Counted from the stretch's first letter, positions 2 to 953 are shown. The stretch is 953 nucleotides of DNA from Escherichia coli (GCF_003334335.1 NZ_QOWQ01000135.1), one strand, 5' to 3'. The notes: generated by a model not told the origin, from the sequence alone. Translations and numbers: made by a program.

Positions 2-34
2 CGTCGCCGTCGTCCGCTGGGAGTGAGGTTATGA
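2..34 (+). CDS. W: 3' end of upstream gene (5'-partial), probable gpW-like head-tail joining / head completion protein; last 10 codons only
   Basis: Reading from base 2 gives RRRRPLGVRL followed by TGA at 32-34. This arginine-rich tail resembles the C-terminus of lambda gpW as I recall it (...QRRRGPAGFYV), and W-then-B is the lambda gene order. Only 10 codons are visible and the comparison is from memory, so the call rests mostly on synteny. Confidence 0.45.
   Translation, partial: RRRRPLGVRL
19..28 (+). promoter_or_regulatory. Ribosome-binding site (Shine-Dalgarno) for the portal gene
   Basis: Purine-rich GGGAGTGAGG at 19-28; the GGAG core at 20-23 sits 7 nt upstream of the ATG at 31. It lies inside the 3' end of the upstream gene, consistent with coupled translation. 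Confidence 0.5.
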
Positions 35-953
35 AACGAACGCCTGTCCTGATTGATGTGAACGGCGTTCCGCTTCGGGAGAGCCTCAGCTACACCGGTG
101 GCGGTGCAGGATTTGGCGGGCAAATGGCAGAGTGGTTGCCACCCTCGCAGAGTGCCGATGCGGCCCTGCTGCCCGCGTTGCGTCTGGGGAATGCCCGTGC
201 AGATGATCTGGTGCGCAATAACGGAATAGCGGCCAATGCGGTGGCCCTGCATAAGGATCACATTGTCGGGCATATGTTTCTGATTAGCTACCGTCCGAAC
301 TGGCGCTGGCTGGGGATGCGGGAGACCGCGGCAAAAAGTTTTGTCGATGAGGTGGAGGCGGCCTGGTCAGAATACGCAGAAGGGATGTTTGGTGAGATCG
401 ACGTGGAAGGGAAACGCACGTTTACGGAATTTATCCGTGAAGGTGTGGGCGTTCATGCGTTTAACGGCGAAATCTTTGTGCAGCCGGTCTGGGATACGGA
501 GAGCACGCAACTGTTTCGTACGCGTTTTAAAGCCGTGAGTCCGAAACGGGTGGACACGCCAGGACACGGTATGGGGAACCGTTTTCTGCGGGCCGGTGTG
601 GAGGTCGATCGATATGGCCGTGCCGTCGCGTACCATATTTGTGAGGATGATTTTCCGTTCTCTGGTAGTGGACGATGGGAACGGATCCCGCGTGAACTTC
701 CCACCGGACGTCCGGCCATGCTGCATATTTTCGAGCCGGTGGAGGACGGGCAGACCCGTGGGGCTAATCAGTTTTACAGCGTCATGGAACGGCTGAAGAT
801 GCTCGATTCCCTGCAGGCAACACAGCTTCAGTCGGCCATAGTGAAGGCGATGTATGCAGCGACGATTGAAAGTGAACTTGATACCGAAAAGGCCTTTGAA
901 TATATCGCCGGTGCGCCGCAGGGGCAGAAGGATAATCCGCTTATTAATATTCT
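31..953 (+). CDS. B: Portal protein, lambda gpB family (3'-partial; N-terminal ~307 aa, gene continues past the window)
   Basis: ATG at 31 opens a frame with no stop through base 953 (307 full codons). Translation begins MKRTPVLIDVNGVPLRESLSYTGGGAGFGGQMAEWLPPSQSADAALLPALRLGNARADDLVRNNG... and includes ...FEPVEDGQTRGANQFYSVMERLKMLDSLQATQLQSAIVKAMYAATIESELDT.... These match lambda gpB as I remember it (MKTPTIPTLLGPDGMTSLREYAGYHGGGSGFGGQ...; ...FEPVEDGQTRGANVFYSVMEQMKMLDTLQNTQLQSAIVKAMYAATIESELDT...). The upstream gene stops at 32-34 in another frame, and an SD precedes the ATG. The identification is by recall, not a database search. Confidence 0.94.
   Translation, partial: MKRTPVLIDVNGVPLRESLSYTGGGAGFGGQMAEWLPPSQSADAALLPALRLGNARADDLVRNNGIAANAVALHKDHIVGHMFLISYRPNWRWLGMRETAAKSFVDEVEAAWSEYAEGMFGEIDVEGKRTFTEFIREGVGVHAFNGEIFVQPVWDTESTQLFRTRFKAVSPKRVDTPGHGMGNRFLRAGVEVDRYGRAVAYHICEDDFPFSGSGRWERIPRELPTGRPAMLHIFEPVEDGQTRGANQFYSVMERLKMLDSLQATQLQSAIVKAMYAATIESELDTEKAFEYIAGAPQGQKDNPLINI

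What the first reader, a model, noticed from the sequence alone, without database searches (positions are those of the whole stretch)
730..885. Near-identical block shared with lambda gpB inside an otherwise moderately diverged protein
Residues encoded around nt 730-885 (FEPVEDGQTRGANQFYSVMERLKMLDSLQATQLQSAIVKAMYAATIESELDT) are almost identical to lambda gpB, while adjacent regions (for example nt 540-700, ...VDTPGHGMGNRFLRAGVEVDRYGRAVAYHICEDDFPFSGSGRW...) differ much more. This could reflect strong functional constraint on a structural core element, or mosaic recombination between lambdoid phages. Which applies cannot be decided from this window.
Basis: partly seen in the sequence, partly recalled or inferred. 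Interest (0 to 1): 0.3.

Follow-up and report, generated by a model that had tools for sequence, protein, structure and literature searches.

The report
Conserved stem helix of lambdoid portal
The near-identical stretch shared with phage lambda is the channel-forming core helix of a common prophage portal protein, kept the same by selection on the protein rather than by recent gene swapping, so it is an ordinary feature.

Summary
The window is the 5' part of a phage-21-type portal gene, a prophage gene found in 1,863 of 5,426 complete E. coli genomes.

Nt 730-885 encode residues 234-285. These are 47/52 (90%) identical to lambda gpB, against 60% for the whole gene and 42% for nt 540-700. It is the best 52-residue window in the gene (permutation P<1/5000).

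- Four-fold sites are 35% identical in the block and 39% elsewhere.
- Same-codon use sits at the saturation null.
- dS is about 1.5, while dN is 4.6 times lower than in the rest of the gene.
- The longest exact nucleotide match is 17 nt.
- No lambda/21 hybrid portal was found among the genome hits inspected.

On the solved lambda portal, the block is the wing-to-stem loop (GQTRG), the whole first stem helix and the entry to the clip. The diverged flanks are the coat-contacting outer wing and the clip surface that binds terminase and gpW.

In passing, nt 844-851 (AAGGCGAT) is the published attachment core of helper-embedded satellites (site B:Phage_portal_2:241). It is unoccupied here.

Everything found is already known, so interest is low.

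The parts
2..34 (+). 3' end of the upstream gpW-like head-tail joining (adaptor) gene. Its stop codon TGA at nt 32-34 overlaps the portal start codon (ATGA).
   Evidence: Nt 2-34 read RRRRPLGVRL*, matching the C-terminus of phage 21 W (...CRRRPLGVRL*). Relatives are annotated 'head-tail joining protein W'.
31..953 (+). 5' 923 nt of a phage-21-type portal gene (lambda gpB family, Pfam Phage_portal_2). The gene runs off the 3' end of the window.
   Evidence: The frame is open from nt 31 to 951. It is 96.8% nt identical to phage 21 and 97.9% to Escherichia phage PhiR12_4. phmmer against the lambda portal 8k38 gives E 4.7e-117. The full-length phage 21 orthologue matches PF05136 at E 5.7e-100.
529..684 (+). 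It corresponds to the part of the lambda wing that includes the coat-contacting loop 208-218.
   Evidence: Identity to lambda is 30-37% aa, and pN is 0.42. Divergence is greater than family-wide conservation predicts, z=-3.8. In lambda, loop 208-218 morphs to fit the portal-coat contacts (PMC10721106).
730..885 (+). The reported block: portal residues 234-285, equivalent to lambda gpB 237-288.
   Evidence: 47/52 aa identical to lambda, and the best 52-residue window in the gene. dN 0.086, dS 1.56.
733..768 (+). Ordered wing-to-stem loop EPVEDGQTRGAN (residues 235-246). It carries Q241, R243 and G244, which are at least 90% conserved across the family (nt 751-753 and 757-762).
   Evidence: In the AF2 model it lies between strand 231-234 and helix 247-275, with block-mean pLDDT of 96-97. 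Q241, R243 and G244 are at least 90% conserved among 123 family representatives.
769..855 (+). First stem helix (residues 247-275, equivalent to lambda stem 250-279). All five substitutions relative to lambda lie in its N-terminal part (residues 247, 254, 255, 260, 263).
   Evidence: DSSP on the model gives H247-250 and H252-275. The model matches 8k38_A with TM 0.87. The lambda stem is residues 250-279 and 343-367 (PMC10721106). The substitutions are read from the alignment.
820..885 (+). Longest perfectly conserved amino-acid run of the whole portal across phage 21, lambda, N15 and phi80: TQLQSAIVKAMYAATIESELDT (22 residues). It covers the C-terminal half of the stem helix and the entry into the clip.
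   Evidence: Run-length analysis. Third-codon positions match lambda at only 11/22.
844..851 (+). AAGGCGAT, the unoccupied crossover core of the known satellite attachment site B:Phage_portal_2:241 (helper-embedded PICIs). It lies in codons K272-A273-M274.
   Evidence: There is a single occurrence in the window. The core 'aaggcgat' and the attL/attR alignments are in the supplements of PMC10111431. Matching junctions occur in E. coli J-8, with a complete 10.8-kb element, and in an O121 strain, with a decayed copy.
886..953 (+). Start of the variable clip surface (residues 286 onward). Identity to lambda drops abruptly here, to 20-33%.
   Evidence: Sliding windows, and pN 0.48 for residues 286-330. 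In lambda, residues 303-319 are a disordered outer loop and residues 320-324 bind the gpW C-arm (PMC10721106).

Best explanation
The block is the structural core of a lambda-family portal protein. It comprises the last wing strand and an ordered loop carrying the family motif GQTRG, the entire first stem helix, and the first residues of the clip.

Twelve copies of this segment pack side by side to build the stem that lines the DNA channel and links wing to clip. Nearly every residue is therefore constrained by packing within and between subunits, and amino-acid changes are removed by purifying selection.

The flanking segments are exposed, partner-specific surfaces. The outer wing contacts the coat protein, and the clip loop contacts terminase and the gpW adaptor. 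These surfaces are free to co-diverge with partners that are themselves diverged between phage 21 and lambda.

The similarity exists at the protein level only. The DNA has drifted to saturation at silent sites, so the two portal lineages have not exchanged this segment in recent evolutionary time.

Shown: the identity contrast, the synonymous saturation, the mapping to wing, stem and clip, and the divergence of the partners. Inferred: that inter-subunit and channel packing is the specific source of the constraint, and that partner co-evolution drives the flanks.
For: 1. Identity contrast: 90% in the block against 60% for the gene and 42% for the adjacent stretch, P<1/5000.
2. Silent sites. Four-fold sites are 35% identical in the block and 39% in the rest (p=0.81). 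Same-codon identity is 0.52 against a codon-shuffle null of 0.47±0.07 (P=0.24). pS is 0.66 against 0.73. dN is 0.086 against 0.394, giving dN/dS of about 0.055. The method has power: lambda/N15 still shows an excess (0.51 against 0.38, P<0.0005).
3. The longest exact nucleotide run is 17 nt, and third positions in the invariant 22-codon run match at 11/22.
4. Structure. The AF2 model (pLDDT 88) gives strand 231-234, loop 235-246 and helix 247-275. It matches the lambda portal 8k38 with TM 0.87. The published lambda domains are stem 250-279 and clip 280-342 (PMC10721106). The review PMC7617512 states that the stem lines the channel, the wing varies most and contacts the coat, and the clip binds the packaging machinery and the adaptor.
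5. Family-wide, Q241, R243 and G244 are at least 90% conserved, and the motif LQxAxxNAxYAAxIESxL appears in the consensus of 123 representatives. The phage Chi portal 8vhx keeps the same motifs.
6. The other core elements behave alike. The second stem helix with the tunnel loop is 79% identical and the crown 75%, for similar family-wide conservation.
7. The partners are diverged: gpW is 49% identical, and the large terminase C-terminal tail falls from 45% to 17%.
8. No hybrids were found. Phage hits are bimodal (19 at 95-99%, 101 at 60-80%). 1,860 of 1,863 E. coli genomes carry the whole window.
Against: The block is more similar between phage 21 and lambda than its conservation across 122 distant family members predicts: 47 identities against 32.6 expected, z=4.7, gene-wide P of about 0.001. 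Across the wider family it ranks only 124th of 479 windows, and residues 350-400 are more conserved. Block identity to phage 21 is the same (0.90) for lambda as for the much closer Gifsy-1-type portal. So a simple uniform low rate does not fit perfectly.

Synonymous sites are saturated, so they cannot exclude a very old exchange. One of three non-independent comparisons (phage 21/phi80) shows a nominal same-codon excess (P=0.029, uncorrected).

The packing argument therefore rests on published domain descriptions.
Confidence: 0.85

Rival explanations
1. Ancient gene conversion. A segment of about 150-200 bp was exchanged between the 21-type (or 21+Gifsy-1-type) and lambda-type portal lineages long ago. 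Silent sites have since drifted to saturation, while the protein sequence stayed frozen.
For: The block exceeds the identity predicted from family-wide conservation (z=4.7, gene-wide P of about 0.001). Phage 21/lambda block identity equals phage 21/Gifsy-1-type identity (0.90) even though the rest of the gene differs far more (0.56 against 0.73). There is a sharp downstream boundary at residue 285/286. There are marginal same-codon excesses (0.51-0.56 against 0.42-0.47).
Against: Synonymous identity is statistically at the saturation null. The excess over prediction also appears in lambda/Gifsy-1-type (z=3.3), phage 21/Gifsy-1-type (2.1), phage 21/P0005 (2.2) and lambda/P0005 (1.9). That fits a clade-wide slow rate better than one pairwise event. 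The five substitutions per lineage are distributed in a star-like way (alignment). Other core segments show nearly the same behaviour. The sharp boundaries coincide with structural domain boundaries. No hybrid portal was seen in the collections searched.
Confidence: 0.08
2. The conservation is imposed at the DNA or RNA level, for example by the satellite attachment site, an embedded RNA, a regulatory site or an overlapping reading frame, rather than by the protein.
For: The block contains the published HE-PICI crossover core AAGGCGAT at nt 844-851, and the 17-nt exact match between 21-type and lambda-type genes (nt 841-857) covers it.
Against: Silent positions across the block are saturated. 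N15 and phi80 carry a synonymous change inside the core (AAGGCTAT). There is no Rfam match at E<=1. Neither strand folds better than shuffles, with z-scores of +0.83 and +1.24. No alternative-frame ORF of at least 30 aa spans the block. An 8-bp core cannot explain 52 conserved codons. A site that lets a parasite split an essential gene is unlikely to be selected for by the phage.
Confidence: 0.03
3. There is no real contrast: divergence is uniform, and the reader's recollection of lambda gpB overstated the similarity.
For: None after testing.
Against: A direct alignment to a lambda record gives 90% against 42% for neighbouring segments. Permutation gives P<1/5000 and Fisher's test 8e-7.
Confidence: 0.01

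Closest known systems
Bacteriophage lambda portal protein gpB (PDB 8K38/8K39/8XOT/8XOW; Pfam PF05136 Phage_portal_2)
   Same: It has the same family, fold and gene position (after W, before the S49 protease C). It is 60% identical overall. In the block it is 90% identical, corresponding to lambda residues 237-288: the end of wing part 1, stem helix 250-279 and the start of the clip.
   Different: The outer wing (30-42% identical), the clip surface loop (20-33%) and both termini are strongly diverged. From established genetics of lambda/21 hybrids, as I recall Feiss-laboratory work cited in PMC9026076 and PMC4669245, terminase-prohead docking is phage-specific.
Bacteriophage 21 portal (gp4, OL657228) and the many 21-type prophage portals of E. 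coli
   Same: The window is 96.8% nt identical to phage 21. It has three amino-acid differences in 307 residues, and the block is identical. The best genome matches are 99.6% identical.
   Different: Only a handful of point differences. The window is simply another allele of this gene.
HE-PICI attachment site B:Phage_portal_2:241 (Mageeney et al. 2023, PMC10111431)
   Same: The window carries the 8-bp core AAGGCGAT at the same codons (K-A-M of AIVKAMYAA). The flanking sequence matches the published attL and attR portal arms.
   Different: Here the site is unoccupied, so the portal gene is intact. Whether this particular allele is used by a satellite is not shown. A decayed copy lies next to a 21-type portal 3' half in an O121 strain.
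Phage Chi portal (PDB 8VHX) and canonical portal stem helices of SPP1, T4 and T7
   Same: It has the same wing, stem, clip and crown architecture. Chi retains GQTRG and LQNAIVNATYAAAIESEL in the equivalent positions.
   Different: It is only about 37% identical overall. Outside the motif skeleton the helix sequence differs, which shows that near-total invariance is specific to the enterobacterial lambdoid clade.

Membership tests
Lambda-family portal protein (Pfam PF05136 Phage_portal_2) | Significant match to the family profile or to a founding member | tested here: met
   The window protein against the lambda portal 8k38 gives E 4.7e-117 over residues 5-298. The full-length phage 21 orthologue (3 aa differences in the shared 307 residues) matches PF05136 at E 5.7e-100 over residues 29-397.
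Lambda-family portal protein (Pfam PF05136 Phage_portal_2) | Canonical portal fold with wing, stem, clip and crown | tested here: met
   The AF2 model of the phage 21 orthologue has pLDDT 88.4 and pTM 0.84. Foldseek gives TM 0.87 to 8k38_A, 0.84 to the Chi portal, and weaker matches to the T4, T7 and HFTV1 portals.
Lambda-family portal protein (Pfam PF05136 Phage_portal_2) | Position in the head-gene cluster: large terminase, W adaptor, portal, S49 protease/scaffold | tested here: met
   The W 3' end overlaps the portal start inside the window. Phage 21, lambda, N15, phi80 and E. coli prophages all show the full order.
Lambda-family portal protein (Pfam PF05136 Phage_portal_2) | Assembles as a dodecameric ring at a unique capsid vertex | not testable with these tools
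   This is known for lambda gpB (PMC10721106). It is not testable from sequence for this allele.
Recently recombined (mosaic) segment | Locally elevated synonymous-site identity relative to the flanks | tested here: not met
   Four-fold sites are 7/20 identical against 55/142 (p=0.81). Same-codon identity is 23/44 against 111/258 (p=0.32) and sits at the shuffle null. pS is 0.66 against 0.73.
Recently recombined (mosaic) segment | Long tracts of exact nucleotide identity | tested here: not met
   The longest in-register exact run between 21-type and lambda-type genes in the block is 17 nt. The maximum anywhere in the gene is 20 nt.
Recently recombined (mosaic) segment | Existence of hybrid genes with junctions at the block in the population | tested here: not met
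   Phage hits are bimodal. 1,860 of 1,863 genomes (21-type) and 3,161 of 3,255 genomes (lambda-type) have at least 80% coverage. The inspected partial hits were a lambda-like gene split by BLAST (ev243), a satellite insertion (J-8) and an IS1-decayed satellite (O121). Not all 94 partial lambda-type cases were inspected.
Recently recombined (mosaic) segment | Phylogenetic incongruence between the block and the rest of the gene | tested here: inconclusive
   Only distance comparisons were made. Block identity of phage 21 to lambda equals that to the Gifsy-1 type (0.90), but the substitutions are star-like and 52 sites give little power.
HE-PICI attachment site B:Phage_portal_2:241 | Crossover core AAGGCGAT at the conserved K-A-M codons of a Phage_portal_2 gene | tested here: met
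   There is a single copy at window nt 844-851. The core is listed as 'aaggcgat' in the paper's supplementary table.
HE-PICI attachment site B:Phage_portal_2:241 | Satellites with int-alpA...primase...terS found inserted at this position in homologous portal genes | tested here: met
   E. coli J-8 has a 10.8-kb element between portal halves, and its junctions match the published attL and attR. An O121 strain has an IS1-decayed copy abutting a 21-type portal 3' half.
HE-PICI attachment site B:Phage_portal_2:241 | Integrase-mediated integration into and excision from this particular allele | not testable with these tools
   This needs an integration or excision assay. The window's site is unoccupied.

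The most novel reading that the evidence does not exclude
The segment formed by the first stem helix and the clip entry is under an extra constraint specific to enterobacterial lambdoid phages, beyond the general portal fold. Candidate causes are a shared assembly partner or host factor. GroEL/ES-dependent portal assembly is known for lambda (from my own knowledge, not tested here), and the scaffold/protease is another candidate. Alternatively, the pattern records a very old conversion between the lambda-type and 21-type lineages. Either would explain why the block exceeds its family-wide predicted identity (z=4.7) and why satellite integrases have settled on it as a target shared across otherwise diverged helpers.
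Probability: 0.12. Interest if true: 0.35.

Novelty: already known. Interest (0 to 1): 0.15.

Why it matters
It matters little for discovery, but the result is a clean resolution. The block is also placed on a solved structure as the channel-forming stem helix.

Two practical points follow. The domain-level pattern of conserved stem against variable wing and clip surfaces marks where lambda/21 chimeric portals could be joined without disturbing the core, and which segments probably carry the coat, terminase and adaptor specificity. The invariance of this helix also explains why a known satellite family can use one 8-bp site to embed itself in the portal gene of otherwise diverged helper prophages.

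Tried and rejected
1. ev243 (H38) appeared as a two-piece, 58%-coverage hit and looked like a possible mosaic. A codon alignment shows it is 96-100% lambda-like throughout, so the split was a BLAST artefact.
2. H92 (E. coli O121) matches only window nt 844-953, and I suspected a hybrid junction. It is a truncated 21-type portal next to an IS1-decayed satellite. The left portal half has been lost, and there is no lambda-type half.
3. H121 (E. coli J-8) matches lambda only to nt 835, and I again suspected a hybrid. It is a complete HE-PICI insertion with both portal halves of the same lambda type.
4. I looked for an RNA or DNA element in the block. There is no Rfam hit at E<=1 and no fold stability on either strand.
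5. I tried to map the lambda gpB cosQ-suppressor mutations (Wieczorek et al. 2002) onto the block, but the paper is not held.
6. A search for papers by PDB code (8XOT, 8K38 and others) returned nothing useful on the stem helix.
7. I considered whether the hyper-diverged wing segment, rather than the block, is the recombinant piece. Phage 21 and lambda are both about equally far from distant relatives there (0.30 and 0.28). Phage 21 is only slightly more family-like, by 1.3 residues (p=3e-4). So this is fast divergence, not replacement.

Full report
WHAT THE WINDOW IS

Frame +1 is open from the ATG at nt 31 to the end of the window. The DNA is 96.8% identical to phage 21 and 97.9% identical to Escherichia phages PhiR12_4 and ECO111 5-P. 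It is only about 66% identical to lambda and its close relatives. Relatives annotate the gene as the portal protein, and the upstream gene as the head-tail joining protein W.

Nt 2-34 encode the last ten residues and the stop codon of the W-like gene (RRRRPLGVRL*). That stop codon overlaps the portal start as ATGA.

The full-length phage 21 orthologue matches Pfam Phage_portal_2 at E 5.7e-100. The window protein matches the solved lambda portal at E 4.7e-117. This portal type occurs in 1,863 of 5,426 complete E. coli genomes, often in several copies, and the best matches are 99.6% identical. It is an ordinary, very common prophage gene.

CHECKING THE OBSERVATION

The coordinates are exact. Nt 730-885 encode residues 234-285, which is the quoted peptide.

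In a codon-aware alignment with lambda B from a real record, the figures are:
- Block: 47/52 amino acids (90%) and 79% of nucleotides identical.
- Whole gene: 60% amino-acid identity.

Over the full-length phage 21/lambda alignment, the 52-residue window starting at residue 234 is the best in the gene. No shuffle out of 5,000 reached it, and Fisher's test of block against rest gives 8e-7.

The block contains the longest perfectly conserved run of the whole protein across phage 21, lambda, N15 and phi80: the 22 residues TQLQSAIVKAMYAATIESELDT at nt 820-885. The one caveat is that other conserved segments exist at 77-83% identity (residues 41-80, 341-400 and 441-480).

CONSTRAINT OR RECOMBINATION

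- Four-fold degenerate sites are 7/20 (35%) identical in the block and 55/142 (39%) elsewhere (p=0.81).
- Among identical amino acids with degenerate codons, the same codon is used in 23/44 cases in the block and 111/258 cases elsewhere (p=0.32).
- Nei-Gojobori estimates give pS 0.66 (dS about 1.56) in the block and pS 0.73 in the rest. dN is 0.086 against 0.394, so dN/dS in the block is about 0.055.

I built a null by shuffling synonymous codons within the gene. Both the block (0.52 against 0.47±0.07, P=0.24) and the rest (0.43 against 0.39) sit at saturation. The same test still detects shared ancestry at silent sites for lambda/N15 (0.51 against 0.38, P<0.0005) and for N15/phi80, so it has power.

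The longest in-register exact nucleotide match in the block is 17 nt. In the invariant 22-codon run, third positions match lambda at only 11/22. The similarity therefore exists in the protein, not in the DNA. A recent or middle-aged exchange is excluded.

I also looked for hybrid genes in the population.
- Phage records are bimodal: 19 at 95-99% and 101 at 60-80%.
- 1,860 of 1,863 genomes with the 21-type gene hold at least 80% of the window.
- 3,161 of 3,255 genomes with the lambda-type gene hold at least 80% of the equivalent lambda query.

None of the three suspicious partial matches I inspected is a hybrid portal.

WHERE THE BLOCK SITS IN THE PROTEIN

An AlphaFold model of the phage 21 orthologue, built on 123 family representatives, has mean pLDDT 88.4. 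It superposes on the solved lambda portal with TM 0.87 and on the phage Chi portal with TM 0.84.

Phage 21 residue n corresponds to lambda residue n+3. The lambda structure paper defines wing 24-249 and 368-452, stem 250-279 and 343-367, clip 280-342 and crown 453-511 (PMC10721106).

The block is therefore made of:
- the end of the last strand of wing part 1;
- an ordered loop, residues 235-246, containing Q241, R243 and G244, each at least 90% conserved across the family;
- the whole first stem helix, residues 247-275;
- the extended entry into the clip, residues 276-285.

All five differences from lambda fall in the N-terminal part of the helix.

The strongly diverged segment upstream (residues 167-224) is outer wing. 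In lambda it includes loop 208-218, which changes conformation to fit the coat protein. The diverged segment downstream (residue 286 onward) is the outer clip. In lambda this part has a disordered loop at 303-319, and residues 320-324 bind the C-arm of gpW.

A review summarises the general rule. The wing varies most and contacts the coat. The stem lines the channel. The clip contacts the packaging machinery and later the adaptor (PMC7617512).

The partners encoded next to the gene are themselves diverged between phage 21 and lambda. gpW is 49% identical, and the extreme C-terminus of the large terminase falls from 45% to 17%. I recall from Feiss-laboratory work, cited in PMC9026076 and PMC4669245, that this tail is the portal-docking specificity element.

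A NUANCE THAT KEEPS A SMALL DOOR OPEN

Among 122 distant family representatives (28-51% identical), the block is above the gene average (0.37 against 0.32) but not the top region. Residues 350-400, the second stem helix and tunnel loop, are more conserved.

A per-site logistic model trained on family-wide conservation predicts 32.6 identities in the block for phage 21/lambda. The observed number is 47, giving z=4.7 and a gene-wide corrected P of about 0.001. Block identity to phage 21 is 0.90 both for lambda and for the much closer Salmonella Gifsy-1-type portal. It falls to 0.69 for the next relative, P0005.

This could be read as an old conversion. However, the same excess appears in lambda/Gifsy-1-type (z=3.3), phage 21/Gifsy-1-type (2.1), phage 21/P0005 (2.2) and lambda/P0005 (1.9). 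The substitutions are star-like. The other core elements behave almost the same way, with about 0.40 identity to distant relatives and 0.75-0.79 between phage 21 and lambda.

The simpler reading is a clade-wide slow rate in core helices of enterobacterial lambdoid portals. I put about 8% on an ancient exchange.

Conversely, residues 167-218 are more diverged than predicted (z=-3.8). Both lineages are about equally far from distant relatives there, so this is fast surface evolution, not a replaced segment.

NO HIDDEN NUCLEIC-ACID ELEMENT

There is no Rfam match at E<=1. Neither strand of nt 730-885 folds better than shuffled sequence, with z-scores of +0.83 and +1.24. No alternative-frame ORF of at least 30 aa spans the block.

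SEEN IN PASSING AND RESOLVED AS KNOWN

Two partial hits had junctions inside the block, on the same short sequence.

In E. coli J-8, a lambda-type portal gene reads ...GTGAAGGCGAT and then enters a 10.8-kb element. The element encodes a tyrosine integrase, a small HTH protein, a BRO-N protein, an Icd-like protein, a primase, an SSB, a major capsid protein, a decoration protein, an HTH regulator and a small terminase subunit. The rest of the portal gene follows the element.

In an O121 strain, the right end of a similar element runs ...CTTTTCATAAAGGCGATGTATGC into a 21-type portal 3' half. That copy is broken by three IS1 insertions and has lost its left flank.

This is the helper-embedded PICI configuration described by Mageeney et al. 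(PMC10111431). Their supplementary table lists site B_Phage_portal_2_241 with core 'aaggcgat', and their attL and attR alignments match my junctions. The window carries that core once, at nt 844-851, unoccupied.

N15 and phi80 have a silent change in the core, AAGGCTAT. The site exploits the protein-level invariance and is not the cause of it.

VERDICT

The interpretation 'functional constraint on a structural core' is right, and 'mosaic recombination' is not supported. Everything found is already in the literature or follows directly from it: the gene family, the fold, the pattern of conserved stem against variable wing and clip surfaces, and the satellite attachment site. Novelty: already known. 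Interest: 0.15.

Noticed in passing
window 844-851 (context 841-857): AAGGCGAT in codons K272-A273-M274 is the crossover core of the published helper-embedded satellite site B:Phage_portal_2:241. It is unoccupied in the window. It lies inside the 17-nt exact match between 21-type and lambda-type portal genes. N15 and phi80 have AAGGCTAT instead.
   Followed up: yes
L008 (E. coli J-8, NZ_CP047002.1) about 19145-29965; portal halves at 18362-19144 and 29966-30799: A complete HE-PICI of about 10.8 kb (int, small HTH, BRO-N, Icd-like, primase, SSB, own major capsid and decoration proteins, HTH regulator, terS) splits the lambda-type portal gene of an otherwise complete lambdoid prophage.
   Followed up: yes
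L009 (E. coli O121, NZ_CP119441.1) 2153-15576: A decayed copy of the same kind of satellite abuts a 21-type portal 3' half. Three IS1A copies interrupt its capsid gene, its replication region and its integrase, and the portal 5' half is missing. This shows that 21-type portals are also targets.
   Followed up: partly
window 31-34: The portal start codon overlaps the stop codon of the upstream W-like adaptor gene (ATGA). The same arrangement is annotated in phage 21, lambda, N15 and phi80, which suggests translational coupling.
   Followed up: partly
window 529-684 (portal residues 167-218): This outer-wing segment is more diverged between phage 21 and lambda than family-wide conservation predicts (z=-3.8). 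Phage 21 retains slightly more family-consensus residues than lambda (for example LRAGVEVDRYGRAVAYHI against CRAGVQINDSGAALGYYV). This is probably co-evolution with the coat protein.
   Followed up: partly
E. coli complete genomes: The 21-type portal is present in 1,863 of 5,426 genomes and the lambda-type in 3,255. Partial-coverage best hits are far commoner for the lambda type (94 genomes) than for the 21 type (3 genomes). This may reflect different satellite occupancy or prophage decay. Only two cases were inspected.
   Followed up: no
cluster of P0002: The 90%-identity cluster of the Salmonella Gifsy-1-type portal also contains members named 'S49 family peptidase' of 421-492 aa. This probably reflects the overlapping or adjacent protease gene, or fused gene calls in the source annotations.
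   Followed up: no
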